A DNA stretch of 49,791 nt from Streblomastix strix (lineage: Eukaryota), in assembly GCA_008636045.1 (NCBI GenBank), contig SNRW01000008.1, forward strand, positions 1 through 49,791. Reading direction: 5' to 3'. Below the pieces are notes generated by a model. That model searched no databases and was not told where the DNA came from. It was given only the letters and a program-made list of their open reading frames with translations. Positions within the stretch are counted from its first letter, which is position 1; each line of letters begins with the position of its first letter. Shown one piece after another: positions 3,001-45,816 of this stretch. The translations under genes and the position numbers were made by a program.

Positions 3001-3379
3001 AGTTTGAAATTGAATTTGATCCATCAGAAGAACAAGAAAGAGAATTGTTTGTTGAAGTATTTATTAAGAAAGATGATTAAGAAGATGCTGAATTTGTTGC
3101 GGGTGTTGCAATTGAGGTTTGTTTATGTATTAAATAAGAATTTTTGTAAAAAAATATATATATTCGTTTAACAATAATTAAATTTATGTTTTTTTTTAAT
3201 TTTTGACAACTTTTCATTCTTTATTCCTAATAATTTTTATTCCTTATTATTATTAGTTCATTGATTTCCTCAAAACTCCTCAACAAGTTGATCTTCAATT
3301 GGTTGGAGATTTAGATGAAGAGTTCGATGAATTTTCAGGCGAAATTTCATTAGACATTGTTTATTTACCTGAAAATTGA
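3..3379 (+). CDS. Long E/K/R/Q-rich coiled-coil protein with C-terminal C2-like domain (5'-partial; intron 3117-3256)
   Basis: Frame 3 reads NRRLEEERKRQEDETKKQEEE... with TAA/TAG=Gln and is in frame with GVIKVDIKSIHNL...DIFVQVQLG...TRTLK...NEEFEIEF. GTTTGT...TATTAG intron; last exon ends GEISLDIVYLPEN-TGA. Confidence 0.85.
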
Positions 3380-3824: not shown

Positions 3825-6800
3825 CAGGTGTTTATTTAAGGAAAAATGATGGTCTGCTTTTGAAAAAGTTGTTCTGTTCTTTATATTTTACTTTAAATAA
3901 AAAATTCAATATAATATTTTATTTATTAATTTATATTTATTCAAAACTATTAAAATTGAAAAGAATCAAGTATATAATCTGGAACTTCAAACTATGAATC
4001 TTTATTAATCAATTACTGTCTCTGACTGTAATTGATATTTCTTCTTTCTTTTTTCTTTATCCATATAGCTACAATTACTTTTGCATCATCTTCCGAAAGT
4101 TAAATCTAACCGTCTATTTTAATATTCATCAAAAAACTTAGCATTCTTTTAGTCAACTTGCTTCTTAAGTCAGTTTTTATTACATTCTTTTGAGAAAATC
4201 CTCTTTTTGCATATGCTGATGACATGAGAACTGTCAATGCCACCTAAACAAGCATGTGTATCATTGGGTATTATATGAAAGATTGAGAACAAATCAGTCT
4301 TCTTTGCACATCTCTTGTAGTACATCCAATGAAATTTTCATTTAGCTATTATCTGAAATCTTTCCAGTTTGTTAATATTTCAATCTCTGCTTCTTCGCAG
4401 GATTTTTTACCACTTAGCTTCCAAAACCAATTATTTAATATCTTTATATCTGAATTTCCATATTCTGAATTATCATCAATTTTCACAGTATCTGCAATAT
4501 TATCAAAAATTTTAATGCAAGACATGATGTCATTATCTTTAAATCTCTTCTCAACTGCTTTTAGTGAGGCATCCACATATTTGCATGATAATTCATCCAT
4601 TTCACTCATCTTCTTCTCATTCAATTCTCCTAATCCTTCTGAATATTCTTCAAGAAATGTTTAGTTTCTTGTCCAACTCTCTATAAGTAGCTAAGATTAG
4701 ATTTTCTTCTCCTTAATTTTTTCCATTCTTTTTTTGAATTCGCTGTGACTTGGCTTTAATTAATCGTAGCATAGATTACTTTCTTGAAATGTTTCAAGTA
4801 TGATTTTTTGCTGGAAAAGTACAAGTTCATGTACGAATAACGATGATATGAACGAGAATTTTGCTGTCACGTTTAACAATCTTTCTGCAATATCTTCAAA
4901 ATTCTCTTCAGATATTTTCTTTAGACATTTCCAAATACTTGATAACTCTATGATTGATGCATCAACTGATTATGAAAATAAAAGCAATCGAACTTTGAAT
5001 GCAGCAACCAATTTTTTTGTTTTATCATGTTTTTCGTATGAATTGATGCAATTTGAACTGCGTCTAGTGGTGACTTAGTAAAATATTGATGCAGTTATAA
5101 TAGTTTCCTTTCACTTTTTAAACGATGAAAATATATGCTAGTTTGATTTCATCTTAATTAGAAAGTGATAAACGATAAGCAAGACAATATTCTATGATTA
5201 ATGAGATCAACTCTTGTTTGAGAAGCGTTGCTATACCATGTTTTACGCCCATCACAGCAGCGGCTCCATCGCAACTAAACCCGCATTATTTTAATAAATC
5301 TAACTTTTTTTCTTTAGCCTTTGATTTAAATTTATCTAAAAAGGTCTATATATTTCCTCCTTTCTCCCCGAGCAATCTAATATCCATGAATTTATTTCGA
5401 ATAACCCCATTTGAATCAACATATCTTACAAAAGTAATGAATTGATTCAATGTAGATATGAATGTATTTTCATCACAACATGCAGACCACAATCCAGCTT
5501 CATGCATATATAAGATTATCTAAGATGTAAAATAATTAGATAATACCTGGGAGAATTCTGTCTTCGGTGTTGAAGAAGCATGATGAAAGTCTTGAAAGAA
5601 TTTATGACCTCCAAAACTTATTATCATATATTAATGTAATTTAATATTGTCATTTGCAATAGCAAATTTTGCAGCATAGTAAATTATTTTTAATTACCAT
5701 TCAGCAGCTAACCTCATTTGATCATCGTTCATATCAACAATTCATAGTACTTCATCTATTTTCATAGATTCTTCAGCTTTTTTTTTCTCGTGAATTATTG
5801 AATTAGTCAAATGTTATCTAAGATCTGCTTATAAACGTGGAAACGATTCTTCAGTCATGTAGGGCGCCTTTTCGTGATATTTACATTCAAGATGTTTCTT
5901 ACATATTTTGCAAAAACAACCTCTGTTTGGACCGAGTTCGAATTAAGTTTTGGGTTCAGGATCATTCAACCAACTTTCGTTAAATTGCTTCTTTTATTGT
6001 TTTATTTTTTCAGATTCATGAATTTGGTATGGTCACTTTATTCCAATTATAATTCCATCTTCAATCAGCTACCGCTTTATTGTTATCATTTCTGTATATT
6101 AACAAAATATAGTAAAAGCAATTAAAAAATAAATATTTTTAACAGATTATTCACACCATTATCCTCATTTTATGATTAATTTTTGTCCAATTCGCTTTAA
6201 CTAAATAATTTTTTTATTCATATTTATAATTTTTAATATGTTTAAATTGGCTATAATTCAGAATAATAATAATTAAATAAAAAATTGATAGTTTAAAAGG
6301 ATAATTTTATTTTCTTACCTTGGAGTTTTTATTTATCAGTAGAAATATTATTAGTTTCTCAATATTTGATCTCCGTCATGCTTTTGGATTGATTCTTCTA
6401 ATATATTCAATTTCCTCTTATTTTCAATCTGTATTAATTGTTAAGCAACATCAATTTCAGAAATTTCTAATTTAATTAGAAAGAATAGAAAAATTATAAA
6501 TGAAATTAAACATTTTATATTTTTTATAACTAAAAACTAAATTAAAGTTTTGAAATAAATTCTATTTATTCCTTAGTTAATAGCTTTTAAAAATTAAGAA
6601 TTTATACAGTTCTTAGTAAATTTGAATAAATTAATGATTAAAATTTATAAATTAATATCAATTATAATGAATTTAATCAAATATCAATAATTTGTTTCTA
6701 AATTTTCTTTTAACTTTGATCACTACTCGTTGATCTTGAATTTTTCCAGTTTCTGTTCCATGAATTTGAAATTTATGCAAAATTTGAATAATTAATTTGT

Positions 6801-9699: not shown

Positions 9700-10520
9700 A
9701 ATGGAATTGTTCATTGCGGATAAAGTTTATCTGTTAATTAATAAATTATTTATTAAATAAATTATTAATAATATTAATTATCAGTTTAATAAACACTTTA
9801 ATTTGAATGATTAATATAAAGGTAAATCTATTGAGTAATCGTATAAATTATACGTAGAAGAATATAATACTAAAAATATATAGAAGAAAAATAAAAATTG
9901 CTTGAGGTTAGCCGACTTCATTAATATTATCTTAATGAAAAAATTAAGAATTATAAATTGAAGCCACAAGTGACATATTAGCGTCCTTACTTTTCTCCTC
10001 AATTAGGATCATTGGAGATGGATATAGCTTTTTTAAAACAGTTATTTTTTTTATTTTATTATCAACGTTAATACAAAGTATCAAATTATATATCCTATTC
10101 GTATAAATGAAAAATAATCACTAATCCCGGACCTAGAGTAGCTAATATAATCTTAATATGTGACAATTATTAGATCAGATTGCGAAGCAGCATTAGGAAG
10201 TAAATAAATTAGGGCTCTATTAACTAAATATAATATATAATATTTTTAAAACAAATCCCTATTCACGAATAAAAATAGAGTGGTAGATAGTGTGATAAGA
10301 AATATGAGAAATAAATTAATAAATTATCAAGTAAATAATCAAATTCTATAATAAGTAACTGATGAGTTCAGTAATACAAAATACAGTGCTTTTAGCAATA
10401 AATATACACCTTTATAAGTAAATGAATCACGTGATTTAGAAGGTAGCTACATACGCCAATAGTAATAAGAAGTAGAAGGTAAAATTAATTTATAAAGAAA
10501 AGATTAGTTAGTAAATATAA
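9700..10520 (+). pseudogene. RVE integrase remnant (Polinton type)
   Basis: RPYFSPQLGSLEMDI, INVNTKY, IRSDCE, RVVDSVIRNMR, SAFSNKYTP; collinear with the integrase at 26303-27506. Confidence 0.8.
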
Positions 10521-11039
10521 ATATGTATTAAATATAATAAAAAATTTAATTTTTTTTAATTAAAAATTTTTAATAAATTTAATTTAAAAAATTTTTTATT
10601 TAAATTTTTATTATTTAAATTGTTTTTTAAAAAAAACTTTAAGTTATTTCATTATTTATTATTGTGATTTAAATTAATAAATAATATAAATCTTTAAAAA
10701 ATTTTTGTTAGAAATATTCAGTTACGGAACTCGTACAATCGTTAAAGCTAAAAAGCATGCTACCATCGGAACTGATCCAATGTACCAACTAAAATTAAGA
10801 GTAGACCTAAGAAATATTATACTATTGAAGAAGCTAAATAGCGAGCTAATGAATGGAGATTGTACTTCAAATATCGTTATAGAGACAAGGTTAAGTAATT
10901 TAAGAAAGATGTAACAACGAAATAATTAGATATATCCAAAATACTTAATAAATATATATTTTAATAAGAGGACATTAATAATATTATGATTATACTCGAA
11001 AATTATATAAATAGGCTTTAATATTTATCTTAAAATTGA

Positions 11040-13359: not shown

Positions 13360-13933
13360 AGAAAGGTGTTCTGGTATCGTTTATGGCAGGATTTATTAAT
13401 GGAAGATTTGAGTGGTTTAGTAGTGAAAAAGGTGAGAAAGTTACAAGAAAAAATTAATTAATATGTGGAAATATGGTGTTAAAATTTGTGTTTATGAATT
13501 GGCAATTAGGTGAGCCGTCAGGCTGTGAGCCTCGAGGGGGTATGAGTCGTTAGGAAATGATTTTTGAAATGTGACCCCCTGGTGTATAAGTTATGCATTC
13601 TAAAAATCAAAAAGGGATAAGATTGATAAATTTAAAAGTTTGGGATTTTGCATTGATTTGGAGTTAATTTGAGTTATTGTAGGTAATTTATTGACAAATT
13701 TACATATAACTCCGCCAGAACTCCCTTCTCTCTAAAATACGGTGTTTATATTGGAAATTTGAGATAGAAGTTAGTCTTGTGATAGATTTGATGAGATTTA
13801 CACCTCGAGACTTGAGGTGATTGACAGTGGGTAAAATATAATAAAATACCGTATAAGCCGCCACGCCTCGAGCCTCAAGGGGTCTTGAGTCGGTCTAAAA
13901 AAAATATTTTGTAATCTGTCCCCTTTTTCATTT
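13360..13933 (+). repeat. Left terminal inverted repeat
   Basis: Reverse complement of 38441-39013, e.g. GGCAGGATTTATTAATGGAAGATTTGAGTGG; outer half nearly identical, inner half more diverged. Confidence 0.95.
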
Positions 13934-15850: not shown

Positions 15851-17131
15851 TTTCTTTATAAGTATTTCATGCTTAGCAATGGATGTTATTATCGACTAAT
15901 TGGTATAATTCGATTATATTCGCCCACAACTAATAACTATTTAACTTCAATTGAGTCATTTATAACAATTTCATAAGCACAGTCTGTAAAAATAAGGCAT
16001 TTACACGGAAAATAGTATAATATTAATGATAATTCTTAAATTTAAAAGAATCTTAAGTAACCAATGAATGTTTAATAAATAACCATGAAATCCATCATAA
16101 ACGGCATAAATCTATTCCCTATTAGAATTATATCTTCATTATCTGGTTTAAATTCTGAAGATTAGGTGTAAATATACACTGTTGTCAATCGATAATAGTA
16201 TTAAGGGTAATATATTCCTGATGTTCTTTCATAATTTTTTATTTATTGAATAATTATTTCTGAAAAATATAAGATTATGGTATCCATAACGCATCATCTT
16301 GTCACTAAATTTATATGAGTAATTAACTTGTGCTTTAGATTTTTATGATAGATTATAAGAAAACGGTGCTAATCCTACTGAAAATAATATATCATCTGTT
16401 AAATTCATTGATCTTGAAACTTGGTATTTAAAACTAAATATGATAACTAGAGTTAAGAATGTGATACTTCTGTTTTATGCACTTTCGTGGGTAATTTCTA
16501 ATAGTATCTTCAGATGTTGATCATATCTATCTCAAACTAATTGTAAAGAATTATATTTTAAAAAATTAGCGGATAAGGTTTCTCAAATGTATGTTATAAG
16601 TAAAATCTTATTGATGCACCTGTTTTATTGGGTTAGAATATGTTATCTTAATAATGTATGATATGTTAAAGTAAATGTGTAATATTTACTATATTTGATA
16701 ATTATGGCAGAAAAATATCATTGCAAATCATGGATATGTACAACAACTTGTTACTGGAAATTTAGACTTAATGATGTCTTTTTCGACGGCGAAAGTGGGG
16801 TCAGACTGAATTAATTTATTTTTAGACGGCTCGATGCGCCGATCCATCGGCTTAAATTCGCAGGAAGTAAACCTTGAGACACGCGGCTTAGAGGGTCACA
16901 TTTGAAGTAATTTTAGACCGACTCAGCATATCTCGAGGCTTGCGGCTTAATATTAATAAAATTGGATCATTATTAATTATCAGATCCACTAATGATATTC
17001 ATTATTTTTCCATTTCCTTTCCTAATTTGCAAAAATAAATTAACATACGTTTTACGTATACTGAATCGTTTCACGATTTGGCGACGTGATTAGCAGTCTC
17101 TCATCCACATCTTACTGCACAAGCATTAAAC

Positions 17132-21915: not shown

Positions 21916-22946
21916 TCAACCACTTATTAAGCACTATGAATTCATACTTGTTAAAGTACCATATATTAACATAAATTCATCAAAAACTAGATTCTAAATA
22001 GAATTTACTTCATAAGGTTGCTTTAAATCACTTTCGCTAAGATCAACACCAAAACTTATAACATGTGATAATATACTTGCAATTTTGAACAAGTAACTTG
22101 GCCATTAAGCAACAAAAAACACAGTATTTTTGCAATGTCTACAGTCAGATACTAAATGAGTTAGTGTCTTAACTAATTCTGATAAAAATCTTTAAATATC
22201 AGCATTGCTTCCAATATCATCAAAAATTAGCGGCGAATTCAGCAGAGAATTATGAAATAGTATGGGTATTTTTATAATTTTTAACTCCGTATCTCATTCA
22301 TCTTAAGAAATCTGAATTTTTCTTTCGAAATACACATTATGAATGTTTGCTGGGACAGTAAACCTCATAATCATTGTCGGAACGTTGTATTTCGTTATCT
22401 TATCAAAATACTCTTATTCAAATATCTCAGCAATTCCTCTAGCATAATCCTTTAGTTTTTCCATTTATTTTTCGATAGACGCGGATGCAAGACGTGTTGG
22501 ATTCTCTTTGATTGGTTTATTTTGAATAATTCTTTCTTTCATTCTTTATATATATAATCTGATTTGTAAGATATGTTTAGTTCACGTAATTTCCAATAAG
22601 TATAGACTTCTTTTACCGAATACTTGATCTCATTAAATTACGGTTCGAAAGATATTACTTCCTCATATGTTATGTTGGTGAATATGATATTCTTCGAGTT
22701 ACGATTCAATGCCATAGTCCTATCAGCACTAAAGTTAGAGAAATATAAAATGAAAGGATTAATTTTTTATTTATATATTACAATTAGTTTGCTTATTTGT
22801 GTTGTTTTCCCTGAGCCAACTGCGCCAATAATATAATGATTCACAATGATTAAGAATAATGAATTTCTGGTTAATGATTTAGTTTTGAATTCATCTAATA
22901 TAGAATTATCGTCGAATGTAACTGATTATATCTCTTCTAATGTCAT
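21916..22946 (-). pseudogene. A32/FtsK-type genome packaging ATPase
   Basis: Walker A IIGAVGSGKTT (~22800-22830); Walker B LIFDDIG (~22210-22230); frameshifted. Confidence 0.85.
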
Positions 22947-23449
22947 GCAGGTTATCTGTTGCAGCAAGTTGCTTTGGTTAGTTGCCAAATAAATCTGTTG
23001 ATATTAATAATTAATTCTATATTTTATGGTGTTAACTTCATTGTTTCCGTAATTTCATTATCTATTCCTGAATAACTTACATAAATATTCTCATTAATAA
23101 AGTAATTATGGAGTTATTTTGATGCGATTCTAGTGACATTAAATTTAATCAACTAAATATTTCAATTCGTTTATCGTAGAAGAAACGAAAATAAAATTGA
23201 ACATTAGAAAATTCATAAGAAAAATAAGCTTATTTTCATTGAAGTAAGTATTAAAATGAATAAATAGAAGATTTCATTAAGGAAGCGATTGAAAAATAAG
23301 ATGAGGAACTCGCTAAGATGTCGAGATATATATTGCATTTGAAGTTGTTGAATCTTAAAACTTATACGAAGTCTGACAATAATGGAAATCATGATAATGG
23401 TAATTAAAATTGAAGTTGAGTAAAAAATTCAATTTATTTATTTGGAATT

Positions 23450-24340
23450 TCATACAACATTTTTGATAAAATAACTTACATTAATTACCACATTTAACGA
23501 AGATGGAATTGATATGAGTGAATTAGAATTATTAATAATTTATCCGTATTAATTGATTAAATAATCCAGATATTAACTAATATTAGCTGATGAAACTGCT
23601 AAATATTACATATATAGTGTACCAATAAATTAAAGAATAAAATTATCATCAACGGTTCCCATTATGAAAGGAATGCTAGTCGAACCACCTTGTGATACCC
23701 AACGAGGATATTCATTAATATGAACTATTTCGCTGCTATGCAAAACTAACGAACCTTAACTTAAACCACTTACATTATCAGTAACTTGAAATTATCTTCT
23801 TTTTGCATTTGATAGAAATATTACTTAACCATTGAATTTTATTTAACTACAATTTTTATCTAAATATTCCTCTATTTATATTTTAATAATCGTCGTCTTT
23901 ATATATTTAAAATGATGCATCACGTAGCCATGTTCCAGTACCTTCAAAATAAGAAGTAATTACCTAATTATATTCTAAAGTTGATACTCCACCAATTGGC
24001 TTACAAACATTAGCACCTAAATAAATACACTTGGTTCTTAAACAAACCCTCTAGTTATTCTTAGCCCTGCTTATTTTGTAACAATTAATAAAGAAGTTGG
24101 CTATAACGTAAAATCTGAAAAAGCATATGATCTCTCTTTTATTATGAAATCGTCTATATCTGATTTATCTCCATTAACGAGTAATATTTATTTTTAAGTT
24201 TCATCAGTTTTTATAAATGAATTTGTAACTATAGGTTAAGTAAATGATTTGGTCTCTGTAATAGTTTAAGCTGTATCTTGTGTTACTAAACGTGATAAAT
24301 CAACTTATATTTTCTTAAAAAAATAACTAAAATAAGTAAA
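23450..24340 (-). pseudogene. Second short fibre-like structural protein
   Basis: LVTQDTAQTITETKSF...FIKTDETQKQILLVNGD fibre-like motif; homologous to 43450-44680 (+). Confidence 0.5.
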
Positions 24341-26302: not shown

Positions 26303-27506
26303 TCACAATTTAAAATAATCTTTATATTTAGTATCTAATAGACATATATCTTTTGCAACTAATTTGCAATATTATTCAAGTAATTCTACTATTTTTAAAT
26401 CAGACTATGATTTAAGTAATTTCACCATTACATTTCCATTAGATTATTTAATAAATTCTGCTAATTCATTGAAATTTCTTCTTTACATAACGAAGGAATC
26501 ACCAGTTTTTGTATAATCAAGATGTATCAAAAGAATAATTCCAGGTTAAAACGATAAAAGTCCTTTGTTTTACTATTATATCTTAATATCAAACAGTTTA
26601 TTCTTTTATTATCTTTTGTATTAACCTTCAATATCATCATTATCATTAGCTTATTTTGGGTAATATTTGTTGTCATATGCAGAATGAGGAATCTAATTGT
26701 ACATTTATACCATCTGTTACATCAAATCATTATCTGCAAACTTCTCAGAATCATTGCCAAATCCATTGCGAATAGTCATGAACACTGAATCAACAACTCT
26801 GCTTCGATTAGTGAATTTTGAGTCGGTAAAGAATGAAGTAAAGTTATTCTCTTAACTGAATGTTTTCAATATATTTCCGCTGAATCCTTTCTCGTCATCG
26901 CCTCTAATGTTAGTGAAATGATTATTCTTAACTAATTTTTACAACGCATTCATGATTTAACCTGTAGATTTATCTCTCAAAGGGAAACAACGAGATATTT
27001 TGTATTAATATTAATGCAAAAAAAATATATTTAATTTACACGAACAATATGTTTATCCATTAAGGAAACTAAATCAAATTACCATGATCCAAATATTGGA
27101 GAGAAATAAGGACGATTCAACTTAAATAATTGTTTAATATAATAATCAGGTGGAATTTCATGTATTTTTTGTGAATGTTTTCCATGAAATTTCTTAAAAT
27201 GTTCAATTTTTGATTTGAAAGGGAATTTTAGAGGTTTGCTTGGTTATTCTAATTCTTGGTTTTAACTGATTACCGCGGAAAATTACGAAGTATTTGCACA
27301 TTTGATTAATCATGCTTCAAATCATATCACATATATAATTTCTCAAGCTATTTTTCATTAAATTTTCCGTAACTATGCGTACTGGTTGCTGCTTCGCAGA
27401 GATTTTATTTATTCAGATTCTTAATAAATTCTTAGAACTTCATTTAATTCATGTTACGATAAGCTGTATATTAAATCCATTAATTTGTGTCTTCATAATG
27501 CGCCAT
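26303..27506 (-). pseudogene. RVE (DDE) integrase
   Basis: RPYFSPIFGSWQFDLV, CININTKYL, IRGDDEKGF, RVVDSVFMTIR, MYNQIPHSAY; frameshifted. Confidence 0.9.
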
Positions 27507-27639: not shown

Positions 27640-30418
27640 TTTTTAATTATATAATGATCAGTATTAACACCATAAACATATGGTGAACAAGCCTGATTTC
27701 TAAGAACTATTGTTTTTGTATTGATACCGCTGATTCCAAATCTTTATTATATAACTTATGAAAATATTTCTTACTTATGAATTAATGAAGTATTATTGAC
27801 TTTTGTTATTATATTTTTGTTAGTTTTATCTTAGAATTATTTCTTATTTATTTATGAATTTTATTCTTATATCATTCCTATCAATTTCATAATAACTTTT
27901 TAATTCGTATTTCTCACTTCGTGATTAAGCCAAATAATTCTTGTTATTCTCCATATAATAACACTTTGGAGCTAATATTAAGCAAGTTGTAGCTTCTAAT
28001 TCAATATTCCACCGTATAATATTCTTAGTATTAGAATAATCATTGCTTGCTGGAAAGAAATGAGGATGTAACTCTTTCCATAATTTCATATCTTTAATTG
28101 GCCAACTCTCATGAGCTATAGCCAAGCATAAACTATCAGTATCACCTTAAATAACATGAATATAATCCATATCTAAGCAAATAATAAGAAAATTATAATA
28201 GGCATTGAGATAGAAGTACTTTGAGTTATCCATTGTAAAGTAAGCAACTTATAATGGTGTTGAGTATTAACACCTCTTCTTTTCTAATTCAATTATGAAG
28301 TAATTCTCAGAAATCTACTTGTCAGTAAGAAAAGTATTGGCCGTATGATGTTTCCATACGTTTTTCTTATTGCATAATCTGAAATCTTATTATTTCTCAG
28401 TGTTAATTGAATCATAAAAAAAAGTAATCACTTCAAGTTTATTTTTCAGTTTTTCACCTTTATTACCTTCAATATGAGGTTTACAACGAAGATTTATATT
28501 AGTTTTATCAAATTCATTGAATTAACAGTGTTTATTAAAGACAATGAGCTATTTAATATCATCAATCACTAACTGGCAACGATCAATAAGAAACCATAGA
28601 TAATAATTATTGAATTATATATATTCATCATGAGTTAATAATAGCATCATTAATTTTGTTACTTCCATATCATGTTACATGTTATTTTTAATCATATTTT
28701 CATATATATGTTCACCAATGGTCTCTTTATTAGAAGTTATCTTAAGATTACGCTAAATAATAGGAAAATTTATGAATTCATTGATGCATTCATCTGGTAT
28801 ATATGCTTTGATTTTTGCAATGAAAAGATGTACGTGCTTGTTTATGATGTTTTCATCAGAAGAGAATCGAAATTTATTGAATATGAATTAGTTGACTTAC
28901 TCTTAATCGTGAATGATATATTTAACTCCTCCTTGCATATACATACTACGCATTGTATAAAGAATTAATGGATGTTGCTCGTCACTCATGCAAGAATCAT
29001 TGAAACTGTTGAAATCTAAACAAATTATATTGTCAATGATATACAGAAATTAATAAGAAACAATGCTGGAATCTCGCTTATTAAATTTATGTATTTTTGT
29101 TTTACCAGCGATGTTTTCTCGGTGAATAACGAATGAATAGCTGCGAATCATATCATTATGAAGCAATTCATAAATTTATTAATCGGTAATTGTCATTGGT
29201 AAGCTATTTAATTCGCAAAATTTCCTTAATTAAATCATTAGTCTTGCAGTTTCTTTATCTTTGTTCGACGCATACTAATTACAATACAAACAATAAGGAA
29301 TAACATTTGTTTTTGAATGTGATTTTTCAATATCTATTCTATCAAGAGTTAGCTTAATATCATAAGTATATCTTGCCTAACACATGTGACAACGTTAAGT
29401 TGAGAAAATATTATGAAAATAATTGTAATCGTCTTTCGTTATATTGTGATTTATTCTTCGTTTTTTACATTTATCTTACTCATTGTAGGAATTAACTTTA
29501 GATTTTCAATAATCTAATGATAAAACAAAGAAATTCGCATTACCAATAGGATAATAACAGGAGGAAATATTAAAATTCTTATAGCAAAAGGCATATTTCT
29601 TTAAACAAGATAACTTTGCAAGAGAAATATTTTACAGTAAATCTATATGAAAATCTATGTAATCTTTAATTCTATTTTCGATTGCAGATAATAATAGTTG
29701 TGATTCTCTTTTTAAATCATTGATCGAGTCAATCTTCCCAATATCTCTAAGAAAATCATCGAATTCCATATTTGTACCAACATAATTCTTAGCATCATTG
29801 AATTCTAAATGAACGGAATTATCAGCTGATTTAACAATGATATGTATTGGGCAACCTCTTAGTCCAGGGCGGTCAATGATTTCATGCATAATTGATTTAA
29901 AATTCATAAATATTAGCGTTGTTGCAGATTTCATTCAGTCAAATCCAATAACCGGAACATCATAATATTGTGGAACCTCATCAGCATATTTATTATCATT
30001 ACGAATTTATTTTGCTTCAATGAATATCTGCTCAAACTATTTCTCAACATAGTTATCTTAGGACTGATCATAAAAAATTTATTTGATATAGTTCTTTGTT
30101 TTAATTGTTGATGCAACTATTGCAGGAGTAGGAATAGGATGATTTCTACCGGGAACTTTCTATATTTCAGTTTGAAACCTGAATGTTAAGTAGTATTATG
30201 TTGGTTTATACTCTGCTTTTTGATTGTGAGATAAGAGATATCTATATGTTTTATTAGATGTAACATGTGGAACAAATGGTTTCGGAAACTTCTTTAATGT
30301 AACATATTTAACAATTTTAATATTGTTTTACTTGCATTCTATCTTGTGTGTATCCATTTTTCGTTTAACATAATGACTTATATCTTACGAGAATATAGCA
30401 TGATTCTTATATGTGGGA
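27640..30418 (-). pseudogene. Protein-primed family B DNA polymerase, exonuclease and polymerase part
   Basis: VPVIGF (Exo II), ICLDFNS (motif A), HVIQGDTDSL (motif C), LAPKCY; stops and frameshifts. Confidence 0.9.
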
Positions 30419-33400
30419 ACTACTTTAAGGAATTCAATTTTTAAATAAAAGTGGGTTAGTTTTATATATAATAATAGTACTATATTTAAAAATATAGATA
30501 ACTAATAAAAATTTAAATAAAACTTGCAAATATTCCATATTCATGGAGATTATTCAAAAATAAATTAATGCTTATTTGAAATTTTTTTTTCAATCAAGAT
30601 ATAACTAGACAAATTATCTAAAAAATAGAATTATTATTATTTTAATTAAATAAATGCAAACACTTTTAATACTCATTTTTGCATTATTATCAATAAATTA
30701 TTACAATTTAGCAAATATTAATGCTCTGTGTATTAAAAGTATTACCAACATTAAATTTAATAAATAAATAATATAAATTAAATATATTTAATTTAAATTA
30801 TTAATTAATTCATTTATGTTATATTAATCTTATTATTTTATTAAACATTTGTAAATATAATCATCACTTTAACAGTTAATTTATCAAAACTTTTAACAGT
30901 TCATAATTTAAGAATTATATTTATTTATTAAATAACTATTTAATGAGCAATAAAAGCTTCATAATTATTACTTAATTTGCGTTTGAATTTATTTTAATAA
31001 AAAGTCTTTTTTTTGTTATTTCTACACAATCATGTTTTAAAATTGTTACTAATTTATGATATAAATAAAAACTTATTCATTTTTTCATAAAATCTAAATA
31101 AATTAATATCATATAGAAAAAATAAAAAAATTGAAAAAAATAAATGTTAATCGTAACTTGATAATTATTTATTTATAAATTTGAAAAATAAAAAAAATAT
31201 AAATTGAATGATAGAAAAAGTAGAAAACATGTAAAATATTTAATATAAAATGAAATACTTCAGGTAAAACATAAATTTAATTTCTTTGAAATAGATATTT
31301 AAAGAAAATGTAATAATAATATCTCTAAGAATTTGTTATGAGATCTACTCTATTAATGAAGATTACCTTTCAATACTTCAAGCATAAATCCTGTCAATTC
31401 TTTGATATGTTACTTTTGGAACATGATTTCCATTGTTTCACTCGCCTCAATAAGACGTCCTTCAGGATTTTGAACAAGTATGAGAGCAAATTATTCAGCC
31501 CATTCTCCTTTAACTTGACAAAGACCTCGAAATATGTCTCCATATGGTGCACGATATCCTGTTTGTTTACAGTATGCAATCAGTTTACCTAATTCACAAA
31601 GTTCTGCATATGTTTATACTGCTTTCTCAAGTGCACCACAAGATAAATATGCAGATAATGCGAAGTTCAAGTCAATGTTTCGAAGGAAACTACCAAAATG
31701 GTTCTGATACAGTGATCTTCCCATCTCTTAACCATCTTTCTGCCATGTCTTTATGTCATTATGGTTCAAATGGTCTGAATTACTCCTACGATTCTTATTC
31801 ATTCATTCGAGTTAGTTCAAATAACACAGTAAGATATTACATTTATGGTGGTGCTTCTCCTCCAATTGGTAATGCAGTCTTGAATCTTAGGATCGTTTGA
31901 GGTGTTATTAATACTTCTACAGGTTACAATAGCTGCCATTTTAGCCGCTTCAACATAATTCTATGCTAAGAAATTAGCTTCAAATTACTAAATAAATAAG
32001 TTTTCACATCCACTCAGCTTTGGACGACCTGTTATTCTAACTGCAAGTGGAACATTCTACAAATTCTATGTGATGTATGATACAATACCACGTTCATCAA
32101 CTTCAATCTAAAGTACTTATTCTTGTACATTCACTCCAATCAATCAATCTTCTATATGTTCACTAACAGATGTGAATATAAGAGATGTTGATATTTTAGA
32201 CATAACTACAAGAGTAGCTGTTCCATTCTCAAATGCTGATAGAATACCCATAGCAGATATTAGCAATATAAGTCCATATCTTTCTGAATAATCAATTGCA
32301 ACAGAGAAATCATTTGGATCAGAATAAATGACATCAGCTGATGCACGCAGTGCCGTCACTCCGGCTGCAATTGGACTAACTTCATTCATAAATAACTTAC
32401 TTCCAGCTGCAATATAGAATGATACATATTATGTATTCTTCTTCTCTCCATTATTGATCTACATACTTCTAATTAATTTCCCAATTATTTGGCTCATTGG
32501 TGATGCAAATAAAGACATCATACTCGTTTCTTATCTACTCTCAAGTTACTGAAATTCAATCCTGCAAGTTATGAAAGATAAATAAAAAGAATTTGAAGAT
32601 TTAACTAAATTTTAAATTTTCATTCATATATATTTGATGATAACACAAGTATAAATGATTTTTCATCAATTCATTTCAAATATTCAATGTTTTCTGTTAT
32701 CATTTTGGATTTTAACCTAGCGAGGAGGTCAAGATCATATATTTGAAATAATTATTTGAATATTTAAAAGAAAATTAATAATAAATTGAGTTTAGTTAAT
32801 GAAATAAATATCAAAAAACCACTATAATAAAGCAGATATTTAATTTCGGGTGTTGGATGATAATTTAAGTGAGTCAAAGTTTTGAACGTAATATCGTATG
32901 CTTCAATAATTGTGTAATTCTAGTTTATAATTATTTAAAAACTATACTAATATGAGAATTAATGTGGACAATTAATAGAATTAAAAAATTTAACAAATAT
33001 TATCAGAAAAAATAAAAAAATAAAATAAAAAAATTAAAATTCTCTTTTTTAATCAATATATATTAATAATTATTTAAATTTATGTTTGAATAAAAAATTA
33101 AATAATGTAAAAAGATATTCAATATTAAATATTTTGTTTGCCTATCACATAAAATGAGTACTTTAATTTCTGTATAGTTTTAGCTCACGATATGATTATT
33201 TATGAAGTTATTTATATGTAAAATAAATATAAATCTCTATATTTAATTAAAATATTAATTTAAATACTGAAATTAATATTCGTTTATTGATCAATTTGCA
33301 AAATATTTCTTTTCTTAATATTCTATTTCATTAAAATATAAAGCTGTTCTAAAATAGTTACTTATAATTTTAGTATAATTATAAAAAAATTTTAAATGTA

Positions 33401-33581
33401 TAATCATTATAAAATATTATGTTTTATATTAAAAAAAATTAAATTAAATTTTAGTTTATTGAATCTTTACGGTGAACAACTTCTGAACATTTTTCATAAA
33501 TTAATGTTTATGCATATTAGTTTCTGTTTTAAATTTTATTTTCAAAAAAAAACAAACCCTTTTTGAATTCATTTTAGTAGT
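30419..33581. mobile_element. Insertion into PolB with imperfect terminal inverted repeats
   Basis: Ends ACTACTTTAAGGAATTCAA and rc ACTACTAAAATGAATTCAA (16/19); AT-rich arms around a clathrin fragment; no TSD seen. Confidence 0.6.
31340..32560 (-). pseudogene. CHC: Clathrin heavy chain fragment (propeller end, linker, start of repeats)
   Basis: NDFSVAIDYSERYGLILLIS..G, IGVNVQEQVLQIEVDE..IVSYITQNLQN..LA, NYVEAAKMAA, TPQTILRF, ERWLRDGKI align with clathrin HC; stops and frameshifts. Confidence 0.88.
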
Positions 33582-35090
33582 CCTCAGATAGAACAAATTT
33601 TAACTCCTAATAACTTCTCAACTCCGATAATATACATGAGATGTTGATTTCCATCTACTTCATTAAGAAGAAGAATATTATAATCGCGTGCTGGTTAAGT
33701 TTCATTAGGAAAGTTAGCGAATAATTAGTATTCACAATGTGATTTAGCCGATTAATTGCCGTAAAGAATTTCGATATTCTTATCAAATTATTAACAATTA
33801 ATATTGATATTGAATTTCTAAGCAACTTTCAGTGAATCATCTCAGTTAAATCCTGAATATTTTTTAAGAAATTCATGTTAATCTTCCTTATCGACATTGT
33901 AAAAATCGAATAATAAACATTTGCCCTTAGCAATTCTTGAATATCGATTAATTTCAACACCTTTTTAATCAGGCATAGTTATGCATGTTAGATTATACCA
34001 GAAACAAGTATTATAATCATCATCGCAGTGAATATATTTTATGATGTTCTTCATATTCTTATGTATTGCAATGAGTTCATCCACATTTTTGCCCGGAAAT
34101 GGTAGTCTATAAGATATAATTTACATAAAAAATATGACATCCATAAGTTCTTTAGTATCCAGAAGTTATTTTCTAAAAGTTATTTTTTTACCGTTGTTTT
34201 CATCTTAGAATCGATATTTCAATTAAGATATTGTCTTGTTCCTTTTTTACATAGGAACATCATATTCATCTAGAATGAATTCACTTCTTTAAATTGCAGT
34301 ACCAAAATCAAAATCACACTTGAATGATCTTCCATTTTCATGCGTATAGACTCTTTCGATGAATAAGCCACAATCTTCTGATGAGGTGATGTGATTGTTG
34401 AAAAATTCAACTGTTACAGTAGTATGCTGACTCCCATCAGCATAATTTATGGATTCATCAGCATAATTAGCTCAATTATCTGCGATTACTTAAGATAGTA
34501 TATCAAATCTTGTTGATTTTGTTAGAAAAATGAATTCAGGATTCGTCTAAGAGAAATCATAGATCTTTGAATTATTATAATAATGAATCATCTTACGAAT
34601 TTCTTATCTGTTTCTTATTAGTATTTCACGTTCTTAAGGGTCCAAACTTGATTCAAAGCGTTAGAATCGTGCTTATAGTTATTCTTATTCCATCATTTCA
34701 ATGGAAAATTCTTATTCCAATCGTTATTCAAGATCTCTAAATTCCCTTTTGCGTTAATATTTTTATCATGCTTCTGCTATTTTCTATTTTTTAGTAGTGA
34801 AATTTGCATATGATTATTTATATTATTGTTTTCTTTACGCTAGTTGTTTCTTTTCGAAATCTTTTGGCAAAGGTTTTGCATTTTTTTCATATTCCAGTTT
34901 TGGGTAAATTCTTCGGGTTTTAATTATGGTGGAGGATGATTCTTACTTTACTTACGTGGAAGAGGTTGTTTTCGTTGGATAACAATATTAAGTTTTGCTG
35001 GTTTTTACTATCTATTTTGCTTTTATTTATGAAAATCTTTTGATAACGATTTTGCATATATTTTCTTTCTGGCTTTTGGTTTAAAACCAA
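33582..35090 (-). pseudogene. N-terminal part of pPolB (basic region, OTU-like domain, start of CxxC)
   Basis: DDDYNTCFWYNL ... NINI ... QHLMYIIGVEKLLGVKICSI*; joins in frame to 30418 when the insert is removed. Confidence 0.65.
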
Positions 35091-35388: not shown

Positions 35389-38384
35389 ATGAAGTCTGCA
35401 ACAACGTTGTCTGCACATAATAGTTTGCATTTCACTCCAATCAAAGAAATTTATGAGTAAGATTCAGAAAATCAAAGAACACTAAAGTGGTTTAAAAAGA
35501 ACATATATGTATTACAATAGAAAAAACTTACCGTTGACTTTTTTAAACCATGTACAGCGTCAGACTAACTTATGATTGAAGTAAGTTGTAAATACTATAT
35601 TGCAGATAAATCCGTAAATGTGTATAGATATGAATGAGATCCAATAAAAAAGGTTTAGAAAGAGAAACAGATGAACTCAGACCTAGATAAATTCTATGAC
35701 ATATTTCTGTAATTTCAACAAACACCCGAATATAATGAAATATTATAAATAGAAACGGAATAAGAAGAAGAATGTTGATTACGTAAAGCATTATCTGATC
35801 TAAAATATTAGAATGAATAGATGAATATTGAGGCAGATCCTGAAAAGAAGGCTTAGATGTGGATAGACTTGTGTCTTATGCAGCATGATTTAGAAATTTA
35901 TCCAGTAGAATAGAAACATGTAATTTAGTATATAATGAAATAAGAAACTGTACTTAATAAATTAAAGAGATAATCAGAATAAGAAAATAAATAAACAATT
36001 GACGAAGGAGTTTTAATTGATAAAATCAACTTATATTACTATAATAAGATTGATTATGGAAAAACAGGAAAAACTATAACAGGATCTTGCATAAACATTG
36101 CAAAATGTCCTTGATTATCAGTGGTTGATATCGATATTAATAAATCATTAAGTAATGAATAAAGAAAAATAATCAGAGATGAAATCTTAGAAAAATTTAA
36201 TAAATCAAAGTTAAATGTAAGCTTAACTGAGACTGTGCATGGTGGATTACTTCTATATTGTAATATTGGATTTGAATTATTAGAGTAGAATTCAATAGTT
36301 GAGAAGATATATAATAATAAATATGATGTTGATATATTTGCAAGTGTTTAAGCATATTTCAATAAAGATTCTAAGGGAAGTTTGAGAAATATTGCATAGC
36401 CTGGAACTATAATTAAGGATAAAGTGAAAGATGCAATAACAGGAAAATGGATGAATGAAACAGACGAGATATTCACATATAAAGATCTAAATGACATATA
36501 TAACAAAAAAGATTTAAGTACTTTACAAGAAGTATTTGAGATATTAGATTTTGATATGGATGTGAAATACCATAAAAAACCTGAAATTAATGAAACTTTT
36601 AAATGGACTATTGATATGACAAAAGAATAAGCAGAAATATTAATAAATAGATTAAATAGCTTAGTTGTATATAATAATGCAAGGAGATCTGTAACTGAAT
36701 CAACTTTATTTGCGTTATTTTCATCAATAATTGGTTTAAAAGGTATTACACGAGTTGATGATGAGTATATTGATATGAGTTATGATAAAATGAAGTTAAT
36801 TCCTGGGTTAACAGAGAAAGCAAGATCAAACTTTAATAGCACTCGATATAAGTTTTGCGACAAATCATTTTTACTGCATTATTTATAGAAAATCGTTAAG
36901 TTTACAAATGAAAAATATTACTAGGAAGTATTCTTACAAACATTACGACACAAAACTGTATATTCTGAATAAGAAACAAAATAATAAACAAGTTGTGCAT
37001 AAAGTAGCGAAAGTTATTAATCAGAAAACGAAAATATAGATATAACTAAAATCATAATAAATAAGATAAATTTAACTGATTAATTTGAGTTATGCAGGTA
37101 TCTAAAATAAGATATTAAAGAATGATTATTAAAATATTGAAGATATCTTATCTGACATGACTGAAATCATGAATTATATGCACTTAGATAGTGATTCATT
37201 CCTTTTCAAACAATACAATAATATAGAAATGAAATATTCTATTGAATGTTAGAACAATGTTAATGTTTAGGATATTCTTCATAAGATTCTTGCCTAATTT
37301 AATAGAAAGAAGTCAAAACCACTATGGTAATTACAACTAACATGCAATTAAGTATTCCTTATTAAATAAATATAGTTTAAAAGTGATGATCTAAATGGGT
37401 TTTCTATGTTTAAAGTTAGAGATTCCAATAAGTTGATAAAATTAATATGGAATTAATATAGCCATATCAAAATCATATAATAGAAGTGATTTCATCAGAA
37501 AAAATTGCTGTTTAAGAATATATACTGAATTGGTTCTCTGCAATTATATAGCATCCAGAGATATAAACTCGGGTGTCAATAATATTAAGAGGAAGCTAAT
37601 GCTGCAGAAAGAATACTTTTACTGTTGTAATGTCTGAGTTATAATCTGGTTATTCATTGAGAAATATAACATCGTTAACTTCAGTAACAGAATAATTCAA
37701 TTAAATGCATGAAAATAAGGTATTTCTAGTGTTAAATGAGCTGAAAACATTCAGTAACGCAGTTGATCATGAAGCTGATAAACTTAAATCATTAATAACT
37801 GATCCAACACTAGAAATCCGTACAAAATTTCTTAATTCCAATATCACAAAGAACATATTAAATTTCATATTAGATTCCAATCATTTAGATCCTGTTCATT
37901 TAGATTAATCAGATAAACGTTATTTAGTATTTAACGTAATTCTAATTATAGAAAGAACTTTGAATACTTTAATAAGCTATTCTAGCATATAAATTAAGAA
38001 GATTTTTATGAAAATCTCTTAATATTCTTTATGAATCGTGATATATCCAAGTTTGACAAGAGAATTATACCATTAACCGAAGCGAAAAAGGAAATTATAG
38101 ATATTTCATTAGCGGACATTGATATATTCTGTATTAAATACTTTAAATAGTCAAAAGATGGTTAGTTATGCGAAGATGCAGTATAATGCTCATAAGAGTT
38201 TATGAAACCAGGAATATTCAGATTATAAATCCATAAGAACTTTGAAACAGTAATTAGGTCAAATCATGGTAAGAAACTTAGATATAGCGTTATTAAATAA
38301 GATAAATTGGAATAGTAATAAGAGTATTTCTATTAACAAGATCCAGAATATTCGTAAGTAATCAAAGTTAACGAAGATGATTGA
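35389..38384 (+). pseudogene. Prim-pol primase fused to SF3/DUF5906-like helicase
   Basis: LSVVDIDI, TETVHGGLLLY, DVDIF; EYILNWF...IILRGSQCCRKN (decayed Walker A), LVLNEL, KLKSLITD, SN...DKRYLVF. Confidence 0.85.
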
Positions 38385-38440: not shown

Positions 38441-39013
38441 AAATGAAAAAGGGGACAGATTACAAAATATTTTTTTTAGACCGACTCAAGACTCCTCGAG
38501 GCTCGAGGCGTGACGAATTACTCAGTATTTCATTCTATTTTACCAACTATCAATCACTTCAAGTTTCGAGGTGTAAATCTCATCAAATCTATCACAAGAC
38601 TAACTTCTATCTCAAATTTCCAATATAAACACTGCATTTTTGAGAGAAGAGAGTTCTGGCTGAGTTTCATATAAATTTGTCAATAAATTTCCAACAATAA
38701 CTCAAATTAACTCCAAATAAACACAAAATCTCAAACTTTTACATTCTTCAATCTTACCCTTTTTGATTTTTAGAATGTATAACTCGTATACCAGGGGGTC
38801 ACATTTCAAAAATCATTTCCTAACAACTCATACCCCCTCGAGGCTCACAGCCTGACGGCTCACCTAATTGCCAATTCATAACCACAAATTTTAACACCAT
38901 ATTTCCACATATTAATTAATATTTTCTTGTAACTTTCTCACCTTTTTCACTACTAAACCACTCAAATCTTCCATTAATAAATCCTGCCATAAGCGACGCC
39001 AGAATTACCTTCT
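38441..39013 (-). repeat. Right terminal inverted repeat
   Basis: Reverse complement of 13360-13933. Confidence 0.95.
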
Positions 39014-43449: not shown

Positions 43450-44680
43450 AAAAATTTGCACCCTTCATTAAATAGTAAATAATTATATACTTCATTTATT
43501 TTAGTTAATAAATCAGAAAATCAAGAGATTACATTACACTAGATACAGAATAAATAACAACTGGTAAAAAAAATTAACGCACTAACAGCTAATTAATTAA
43601 CTAGTACAATTCGAGCTAACTTAAGTGAAATCAGTGCTGATGATATTGAAGCAACATAAATTAAGTTATCAGATGGTCCTTCAAATTATATATTACTAGT
43701 TAATGGATACATAACAGATTTAGATTAATTTTTACTAAAAGAACGATCGTTTGCTTTTGGAGATCTAACTCTATAATTAACTACANNNNNNNNNNNNNNN
43801 NNNNNNNNNNNNNNNNNNNNNNNNNNNNNNNNNNNNNNNNNNNNNNNNNNNNNNNNNNNNNNNNNNNNNNNNNNNNNNNNNNNNNAATTAAGTTATCAGA
43901 TGGTCCTTCAAATTATATATTACTAGTTAATGGATACATAACAGATTTAGATTAATTTTTACTAAAAGAACGATCGTTTGCTTTTGGAGATCTAACTCTA
44001 TAATTAACTACAGACTTTGATATCAAATTAGGTGGATTAAAAATAAATTGGGGACTAAATAAAAATTTTGATAGTAATATTTATTTGGGAACTAATGTCT
44101 GTGATAGTTTCTAAATAATTGACGATCATGCCACACTTATTCCTACTTTAGAATATAGTTGAACGTTGAATTCGAAATTAACTAATACAACTACTGGATT
44201 TAGGAATGAATAACCATTCCAGATATAGAAAAAGTGTGATGAAAATTTTTTAAATAGAAGTATTTTTTTCGTTAAAAATTAAAATTAATTTATATTAAAT
44301 GGATAAATTTTTTCACCATAAACTGCAATAAGAGGCAATTTCACGTAGCAGATAATATAACTAGGTCAAGTTAAGATTCATTAGTTTTACATAGTAGTGA
44401 AATAGCTTATGTTAGTTTATATTTCCTTTGGACATCTTAAGGTGGGACAACTTACGATCAAATAATAATGGAAACTGTAGATGATAATTTTATCCATAAA
44501 TTTACTGATACACATTATATGTAACAGTTAACGGCATCATCAGCTAATATAAATTAATATCTAGATTGTATAATTAATTAATATAGCTAAATAATTATTA
44601 ATTCTAATTCACTTATTTCAATTCCAGCATCGTTAAATGTGGAAATTAATGGAACATATTTAATCAATAATGTCGTTTAA
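43450..44680 (+). pseudogene. Fibre-like protein homologous to 23450-24340
   Basis: TLDTEQITTGKK, YILLVNG, LGTNVC, SLVLHSSEI, IPASLNVEIN; spans the assembly gap. Confidence 0.55.
43786..43885. other. Assembly gap (100 N) flanked by a 127-bp duplication
   Basis: 43659-43785 is identical to 43886-44012. Confidence 0.95.
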
Positions 44681-44829
44681 ATATTTCAAAAATATGAAGT
44701 ACTAGAGGATGGATTAATTTTTAACACTAATTCAAGAGAGCAAAATTTTCCCCTAAAATTTTAAATAGACTGCCAAAATTATGGTACTCAATTTTAGCGT
44801 TTTAATATATCGAAAATTTTAAACGATTT

Positions 44830-45816
44830 GTTTATTATGAAAAATTCAAATTTCTGTAAACTGTTATATATATAATTGTAAATTCTTATACATTTAATTC
44901 TTCTACATTATTTTCTTCATATATTTATTTCAAATCTTATTCTGATATATTAACCCCAACTGCAATTACGTAGCATAATACACCAGCTGATTTAAACAAA
45001 TAACCTAGCCTTTACACTAAAATAATATGGTATTTTTACTATTTCTGCTATCGGAAGCCAAGCGAGTGATAGATCTGGCTAACTCAATACCGTACCGTTA
45101 AATGTCTGTATTAGATTTAATGTCATCAAAGATCATTAAAGTTGAAAGTAATGATGAGTTAATTAATATGGGTATTTTTAAAATTGTTAATCACCATCTT
45201 GCTCAACAATTTTTAATTTCTTCGAATATTTAATCCCTTTATTTATTGTAGGAACGTTGAATCGCGTAATAGTTGTGGGCTAACTATATTAATTAAATAT
45301 TTTTATATATTTTATTTGGAAAATTTCTCGTAAACTATGTTGATATTATTTATCTGTTTCCTATTCTCCTCGCAAGTCTTTTTATTTATTTTTATCGATT
45401 ATTGATTCTTTCATTCTAGTTATACAATCAGATTCTTATTTAATATCTCATTCTTTTAATTTCCTATAAATATATATTTTTTTCACTTTATATTTAATTT
45501 CATCGAATTACAGTAGGAATTATTGAGCTTATGTGAAAGTAATATTAATTAATTTTAAACGTTTACTATTTATATTAATCGCCATTGTCTCGTCCGGTCC
45601 GAAGTTAGAGGAATATAATATATAAGGATTAATGCACCGTTAATATAATACTATTAATTTCTCCATTTATGTTGTTTTGCCACTTCCAACCGATCCAACT
45701 AAATAATGATTTGCGTTAATGAGAAAGATAGAATGAGGTGCTAGTGGCCTAATTTTATATTATTATAATTGTGAGTAATCGTCAAACTATACTTAATTTT
45801 TTTATTAGATGCTCAT
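44830..45816 (-). pseudogene. Packaging ATPase, second copy
   Basis: HYLVGSVGSGKTT; LMIFDDIKSNTDI; collinear with 21916-22946. Confidence 0.85.

What the first reader, a model, noticed from the sequence alone, without database searches (positions are those of the whole stretch)
30419..33581. PolB split by an inverted-repeat-bounded insert carrying host clathrin heavy chain
Seen: the insert ends are imperfect inverted repeats (16/19, with further GGGTT.GTTTT similarity after a gap). Excising 30419-33581 restores the frame ...VKICSI*G|PTYKNHAIF...THKIEC. The cargo is a ~1.2-kb clathrin fragment with no obvious introns. Inference: a non-autonomous Pack-type transposon carrying a host gene piece that knocked out the viral polymerase. 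An alternative is two truncated Polinton copies flanking host DNA, since the CxxC-like motif may be present on both sides.
Basis: partly seen in the sequence, partly recalled or inferred. Interest (0 to 1): 0.8.

Follow-up and report, generated by a model that had tools for sequence, protein, structure and literature searches.

The report
Clathrin-carrying transposon inside viral polymerase
A 3.2-kb stretch with matching inverted ends and a broken piece of the host's clathrin gene splits the polymerase gene of a decayed virus-like element in what is likely a termite-gut protist, and it is likely one copy of a small gene-carrying transposon family, a kind already known from plants and animals.

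Summary
One Polinton-type PolB gene (TAA/TAG = Gln; closest relatives Streblomastix strix) is split by a 3.16-kb insert. The two halves join end to end on relatives' proteins and belong to one subfamily (Spearman 0.95, 17 of 35 proteins). The inverted ends match at 16 of 19 bases (chance about 0.004). The cargo is an intronless clathrin heavy-chain pseudogene of 1.44 kb, not 1.2 kb (about residues 85-598). New here: S. strix clathrin fragments on at least three other contigs share derived changes with this copy (substitutions, a 60-bp deletion, a stop, frameshifts), and one also shares the left arm. So cargo plus arm was likely amplified after it began to decay, as multicopy Pack-type transposons are. 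Not shown: a target-site duplication (12 extra bases, best 3 of 8 alike), the transposase family, the sisters' flanks, or a contig across a junction. 'Knocked out the polymerase' is unproven: the gene has four other stops and a frameshift. 'Two truncated Polintons' is rejected. Verdict: likely a new member of a known kind, in a lineage where my searches found no report. The scan had not noted this on other DNA.

The parts
33584..34765 (-). N-terminal part of a Polinton-type PolB, decayed (stops at 34474, 33844, 33586)
   Evidence: P0014 residues 1-385 align at 68%; stops
33563..33583 (-). Right inverted end (19-bp core 33563-33581, outer bases uncertain)
32755..33583 (.). Right arm, 829 bp, 16% GC, no Pfam family in six frames; related contigs with their own variants lie on 33300-33537
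31311..32754 (-). Clathrin heavy-chain pseudogene fragment, about residues 85-598, intronless, 5 stops, 3 frameshifts, one 60-bp deletion
   Evidence: Pfam PF09268 and PF13838 above cut-off
30418..31310 (.). Left arm, 893 bp, 14% GC
30590..30636 (-). Left-arm segment shared with sister copies (tail of P0041; weaker for P0045)
30417..30437 (+). Left inverted end (19-bp core 30419-30437, outer bases uncertain)
27645..30417 (-). C-terminal part of the same PolB, decayed (stops at 29937, 29508; frameshift near 27900)
   Evidence: relative P0011 passes Pfam PF03175
13369..39004 (.). Surrounding decayed Polinton-like region between 565-bp inverted repeats (92.6% alike); holds an integrase-like gene near 26350-27200 and a DUF5906 gene at 37390-38034. 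Whether the repeats are its true ends is untested

Best explanation
The insert is likely a non-autonomous, Pack-type cut-and-paste DNA transposon that carries a dead fragment of the host clathrin heavy-chain gene and likely jumped into the PolB gene of an endogenous Polinton-like virus. Shown: one PolB is split at a single site; the insert has inverted ends, two AT-rich arms and a clathrin pseudogene in the middle; related clathrin fragments elsewhere share derived lesions, and one shares the left arm. Inferred: a defective element picked up host DNA between its ends (gap repair or template switching, the models in PMC8277862), the cargo began to decay, and a transposase supplied in trans copied the unit to several sites, this one among them. 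The 12 extra bases at the junction would be element tips plus a worn target duplication. The transposase family is unresolved; an 8-bp-duplication family (hAT, Mutator or Merlin) is my first guess, with little weight. The cargo makes no protein. The insertion is one of several lesions in an already decaying viral gene.
For: Single split gene: in 10 of the 17 relatives scored, the N-side ends one residue past where the C-side begins, and identities of the two halves rank together, Spearman 0.95 (17 of 35 proteins had 40 or more aligned residues on each side). Two contigs of run X2 run from the N-side straight into C-side sequence, i.e. an empty site (loose end at 33593, read by eye). Inverted ends above chance. 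Host origin: 74% and 60% identity to S. strix clathrin P0047. Against a host-like reference, P0040 shares 7 of its 11 changes with the window, P0042 13 of 30, P0039 5 of 53, P0041 3 of 8. The 60-bp deletion is in the window, P0040 and P0042, not in P0047; P0042 ends at the window's stop at 31758; P0044 reads through the same frameshift near 31930; P0038 and P0041 show the shift near 31700 (read by eye). Shared arm: the non-clathrin tail of P0041 has its best place in the whole window at 30636, score 55 against 36 next best and at most 30 in 15 shuffles. Contigs with their own indels and a substitution lie on the right arm.
Against: No clean target-site duplication in any of seven registers: 3 of 8 alike at 8 bp, 3 of 10, 2 of 6, 2 of 4; five mismatches in eight has probability 0.003-0.03 at 15-25% pairwise divergence. 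The sisters are known only as predicted proteins, so their ends and flanks were not seen. No further copy of the inverted end was found in the window, IMG/VR (one match, unrelated by blastn) or JGI metagenomes. P0044 and P0045 share 0 substitutions, P0038 and P0046 one each; some shared changes come from the deletion and frameshift edges and are not independent. P0036 and P0037 are decayed-looking clathrin copies with other limits (residues 1-582 and 293-771 matched), so this genome makes clathrin duplicates in more than one way. None of the 16 displayed pieces (of 149) crosses the right junction; the left junction was not examined with reads.
Confidence: 0.62

Rival explanations
1. One insertion, many apparent copies: the insert entered PolB once, and the sisters are duplicates of the whole locus, either copied with the Polinton-like element, by segmental duplication, or as divergent haplotypes from pooled cells.
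For: Sister flanks unseen. The public S. strix draft came from whole-genome-amplified, hand-picked cells (PMC8767320 passage), so haplotypes can assemble apart; five records share an identical clathrin N-terminus. No second copy of the inverted end was found.
Against: Sisters differ from the window by 13-21% of residues, while the host-like N-termini are identical over 72-136 residues. P0040 has the deletion but not the frameshift near 31930, a nested series that fits successive copying. None of the 11 PolB relatives caught at the junction motif shows the extra codons, though interrupted copies would mostly escape that search.
Confidence: 0.2
2. Not a transposon: a piece of host DNA (a clathrin pseudogene with its AT-rich surroundings) was patched into a double-strand break in the viral gene, and the inverted ends are chance or a repair by-product.
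For: No clean target duplication. The arms are as AT-rich as other non-coding parts of the window. No transposase in the right arm.
Against: Inverted ends at both protein-defined breakpoints have a chance of 0.001-0.004, plus a second matching block. The arms hold no missing clathrin coding sequence (14 of 200 shuffles reach the score for residues 1-83; 156 and 200 of 200 for the downstream part).
Confidence: 0.12
3. Assembly chimera joining two PolB copies through a clathrin-bearing contig.
For: Many related PolB copies exist; repeated viral genes are known to misassemble (PMC10120064 passages). No displayed contig bridges a junction.
Against: A chimera would not leave the halves abutting within 4 codons with inverted ends at both joints. 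The only N gap is 10 kb away. Run X1 holds 73% of 529 sampled words of the stretch, although it may be the window's own source.
Confidence: 0.04
4. Two truncated Polinton copies flank a stretch of host DNA.
For: A C-x-x-C-like remnant can be read on both sides of the insert.
Against: The overlap is only three codons; the halves are complementary, in one orientation and of one subfamily.
Confidence: 0.02

Closest known systems
Multicopy Pack-TIRs of animals (Tan et al. 2021, PMC8277862, passages)
   Same: Host-gene piece between the ends of a terminal-inverted-repeat transposon, no transposase, parent gene elsewhere, more than one copy.
   Different: There, several rounds of transposition are shown by distinct target duplications and the ends match a catalogued family. 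Here neither is shown, the host is a protist, and the landing site is an endogenous virus gene.
Pack-MULEs of plants (PMC6446971 passages; PMC8277862 passages)
   Same: Non-autonomous elements carrying host gene fragments; 8-11-bp duplications would fit one partition of the 12 extra bases.
   Different: Plant MULE ends are usually hundreds of bases long; here about 20-45 imperfect bases (Trichomonas TvMULEs have 20-38 bp, PMC2725143 passages). No Mutator transposase was tied to these ends.
Merlin transposons of oxymonads (PMC8101967, passages and supplement searches)
   Same: GG tip on the right end and an 8-bp spacing fit the family rule; remnants are reported in S. strix.
   Different: The seven Monocercomonoides family ends seen in the supplement begin GGCA, GGTA or close variants, not GGAC; the left tip reads GA; the duplication is only 3 of 8 alike.
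Mobile elements nested in Polinton-like viruses (PMC12220804 passages; PMC10120064 passages)
   Same: A second mobile element disrupts a gene of an endogenous Polinton-like virus.
   Different: Those are retrotransposons encoding reverse transcriptase; this is a DNA-type, non-coding element with host cargo.

Membership tests
Pack-type TIR element (Pack-TIR / Pack-MULE) | Inverted terminal repeats on both sides | tested here: met
   16 of 19 plus a second block; 12 of 3000 and 4 of 3000 random pairs reach it
Pack-type TIR element (Pack-TIR / Pack-MULE) | Internal sequence copied from a host gene that exists elsewhere | tested here: met
   Clathrin fragment, 74% and 60% identical to host-like P0047
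Pack-type TIR element (Pack-TIR / Pack-MULE) | No transposase of its own | tested here: inconclusive
   0 Pfam families in 6 of 6 frames of the right arm; left arm not scanned, 14% GC
Pack-type TIR element (Pack-TIR / Pack-MULE) | Target-site duplication | tested here: inconclusive
   12 extra bases against empty sites, but no register gives matching copies
Pack-type TIR element (Pack-TIR / Pack-MULE) | Copies at different sites (multicopy class) | tested here: inconclusive
   Sisters share lesions and arm sequence; their flanks were not available
Pack-type TIR element (Pack-TIR / Pack-MULE) | Ends match a known transposon family with an autonomous partner | not testable with these tools
   No genome held; no repeat library
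Merlin | 5'-GG tips on both ends | tested here: inconclusive
   GG on the right, GA on the left
Merlin | 8-9-bp target duplication | tested here: inconclusive
   3 of 8 alike
Merlin | Ends resembling described oxymonad Merlin ends | tested here: not met
   Compared by eye with seven family alignments; end motifs not seen in the paper's S. strix contigs
hAT | 8-bp duplication and ends shared with a hAT transposase copy | tested here: inconclusive
   A hAT-like remnant lies at 3941-5741 (PF05699, E 4e-4, just under cut-off), but the insert's end motif does not occur around it
Ginger2 | TGTNR tips and a 4-bp duplication at RTATAY (PMC2836005 passages) | tested here: inconclusive
   Left end can be read from TGTGG with TATA/GATA flanks (by eye), but the right end reads TGAGG, and this partition would leave the empty site four bases short of relatives
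Polinton/Maverick-type PolB (the interrupted gene) | Protein-primed family B polymerase | tested here: met
   Indirect: 32% identity over 76% of the C-part to P0011, which passes PF03175; the window's own halves have no Pfam polymerase hit; GDTDS kept

The most novel reading that the evidence does not exclude
The clathrin-bearing insert spreads together with the Polinton-like element: a polymerase-dead endogenous virus, copied with help from intact relatives, acts as a shuttle that amplifies a host endocytosis gene fragment through the genome.
Probability: 0.1. Interest if true: 0.68.

Novelty: new member of a known kind. Interest (0 to 1): 0.42.

Why it matters
If right, gene-carrying DNA transposons, studied mostly in plants and animals, also work in an oxymonad, and have multiplied a fragment of a core trafficking gene. 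That would explain some of the many clathrin 'paralogs' predicted in S. strix, which comparative studies of its membrane system could miscount. It also adds host DNA transposons to the elements that disable endogenous Polinton-like viruses. The cargo is dead and the virus copy was decaying anyway, so no new function follows.

Tried and rejected
No whole genome was held, so the genome-wide arm search could not be run. End-motif scans: window, only the two ends (the pattern was built from them, so this is no test of significance); IMG/VR, one match with no similarity to the window; JGI metagenomes, none. PolB relatives in IMG/VR: none. Clathrin relatives in JGI metagenomes: 42 pattern hits, none confirmed. 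No RNA holder listed. Summed contig depth drops at 33538-33571, but the tool says depth is no copy number, so I did not use it. Missing clathrin parts in the arms: not found. Insert as a spliceosomal intron of PolB: rejected, its ends are not GT-AG in the PolB direction. Insert ends as Polinton termini: the repeat lies inside the insert and does not match the 565-bp repeats. Dating the insertion by stops: PolB 5 in 1210 codons, cargo 5 in 485, too few to order events. Earlier scan notes: none by place or sequence; word searches gave other kinds of element. The S. strix genome paper was not held, and Figure 2 of PMC8101967 could not be seen; either may bear on the transposon families present.

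Full report
Setting. The window has almost no long frames in the standard code and reads well with TAA/TAG as glutamine. The C-terminal PolB part finds 35 relatives, 33 of them named Streblomastix strix proteins. S. strix is reported to use this code and to carry Polinton-like viral elements in it (PMC10120064, passages). I take the host to be this oxymonad or a close relative; that is inference from hits. No whole genome was held.

The split gene. Single relatives align with their N-part to the right of the insert and their C-part to the left, on the minus strand. For 17 of the 35 proteins with at least 40 aligned residues on each side, identity to the two halves ranks together (Spearman 0.95); in 10 of them the N-side ends one residue past the point where the C-side starts. 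All 11 of 35 relatives caught by a motif search read C-x-x-C at the junction with no extra residues, whereas the window has C-S-I-stop before the insert and P-T-Y-K-N-H after it. Two contigs of run X2 leave the N-side at 33593 and go on in sequence like the C-side, an empty site at DNA level (read by eye). So this is one gene with one insertion; two truncated Polintons are ruled out. The polymerase label is indirect: relative P0011 passes Pfam PF03175, the window's halves do not.

The ends. The 19-bp cores match at 16 positions, with a second block after a gap. Random 50-nt pairs reach this in 12 of 3000 trials, or 4 of 3000 when GC-matched. Outside the cores lie 12 bases more than an empty site has. 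They can be split between element tips and a target duplication in seven symmetric ways, and none gives matching copies: 4/12, 3/10, 3/8, 2/6, 2/4, 0/2 or none. Five mismatches in eight is unlikely for a true duplication (0.003-0.03 at 15-25% divergence). This is the main weakness of the transposon reading, and it leaves the family open. A GG tip with 8 bp fits Merlin, which has remnants in S. strix (PMC8101967, passages), but seven Monocercomonoides Merlin ends look different (supplement). Mutator elements make 8-11-bp duplications (PMC6446971, passages) and have short ends in Trichomonas (PMC2725143, passages). A hAT-like remnant lies in this window without the end motif; that hAT elements make 8-bp duplications is recalled. 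A Ginger2-like reading fits only the left end (PMC2836005, passages).

The cargo. Pfam finds two clathrin linker families above cut-off. Alignment to S. strix proteins places clathrin at 32754-31311, about residues 85-598 of the mammalian chain. It is 32% GC between arms of 14% and 16%. It is collinear with P0047, which looks like the working host gene, apart from a 60-bp deletion; it has three frameshifts and five stops. The arms hold no further clathrin, and the right arm no Pfam family. Whether the host gene has introns in this part is unknown, so 'intronless' does not tell DNA capture from an RNA step.

Sister copies. Two searches and a cluster look-up gave 15 S. strix clathrin proteins covering the N-terminal region. 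P0043 is the window's own model and was dropped. Against a host-like reference of 425 positions, where the window differs at 100, P0040 shares 7 of its 11 changes with the window, P0042 13 of 30, P0039 5 of 53, P0041 3 of 8, P0038 1 of 10, P0046 1 of 2, P0044 0 of 10 and P0045 0 of 4; P0036 and P0037 share none, partly because they helped define the reference. A few shared changes come from deletion or frameshift edges. Larger lesions are shared too (by eye): the 60-bp deletion (P0040, P0042), the stop at 31758 (P0042), the frameshift near 31930 (P0044, P0042, probably P0039; absent in P0040) and the one near 31700 (P0038, P0041). The predicted tail of P0041 is not clathrin; its best place in the whole window is the left arm at 30636-30590, about 200 bp from the end (score 55, next best 36, 15 shuffles at most 30; 0 of 200 in a second test). 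P0045's tail fits the same spot weakly (3 of 200). On the right arm, contigs of run X1 carry their own indels near 33367-33383 and a substitution at 33522. Together this says the cargo and at least part of the arms were copied after decay began. It does not show where the sisters sit.

Mechanism. Shown: split gene, inverted ends, dead host cargo, sisters with shared lesions and arm. Inferred: capture of host DNA between the ends of a defective element, by gap filling or template switching as proposed for Pack-TIRs (PMC8277862, passages), then copying by a transposase in trans, then decay. The claim that the insert killed the polymerase is unproven: PolB has four other stops, a frameshift near 27900 and worn motifs, and stop densities cannot order the events. 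The chief rival is a single insertion duplicated with its locus or seen as haplotypes; the public draft came from amplified hand-picked cells (PMC8767320, passage). Real-DNA support is incomplete: run X1 holds 73% of the sampled words but may be the source, none of 16 displayed pieces of 149 crosses the right junction, and the left junction was not examined.

Novelty. Pack-type elements are known in plants and animals, and nested retrotransposons are known in Polinton-like viruses (PMC12220804, passages). Seven library searches (listings and abstract starts) showed no report of a Pack-type element in an oxymonad or of this clathrin family; most subscription journals and the S. strix genome paper were not covered. 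I score it a likely new member of a known kind, confidence 0.62, interest 0.42.

Noticed in passing
window 3941-5741 (-): Frameshifted hAT-like transposase remnant: PF05699 at E 4e-4, just under cut-off, and a weak DUF4371 hit. No clear ends found.
   Followed up: partly
window 9946-10813 (+): Second, more distant integrase-like remnant, opposite in orientation to the one near 26350-27200; no Pfam hit.
   Followed up: partly
window 13369-13933 and 38441-39004: 565-bp inverted repeat, 92.6% alike. Part of it resembles coding sequence also present near 15956-16228, so it may not be a plain terminal repeat.
   Followed up: no
window 13520, 13863, 16911, 35116, 35297, 38474, 38816: A recurring 36-45-bp GC-richer motif in the Polinton-like region, possibly a promoter or regulatory site.
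   Followed up: no
window 44251-45786: Inverted, diverged copies of genes at 21950-23880 (65-75% DNA identity): a second Polinton-like remnant beside the first.
   Followed up: no
window 43659-44012: A 127-bp exact repeat on both sides of the 100-N gap, probably a scaffolding overlap.
   Followed up: no
window 3-3206 (+): Open frame of 1067 or more residues with a 21-nt period, rich in E, K, R and Q: a coiled-coil-type host gene.
   Followed up: no
P0036, P0047-P0050: Five S. strix records on different contigs share an identical clathrin N-terminus: recent duplicates or unmerged haplotypes.
   Followed up: partly
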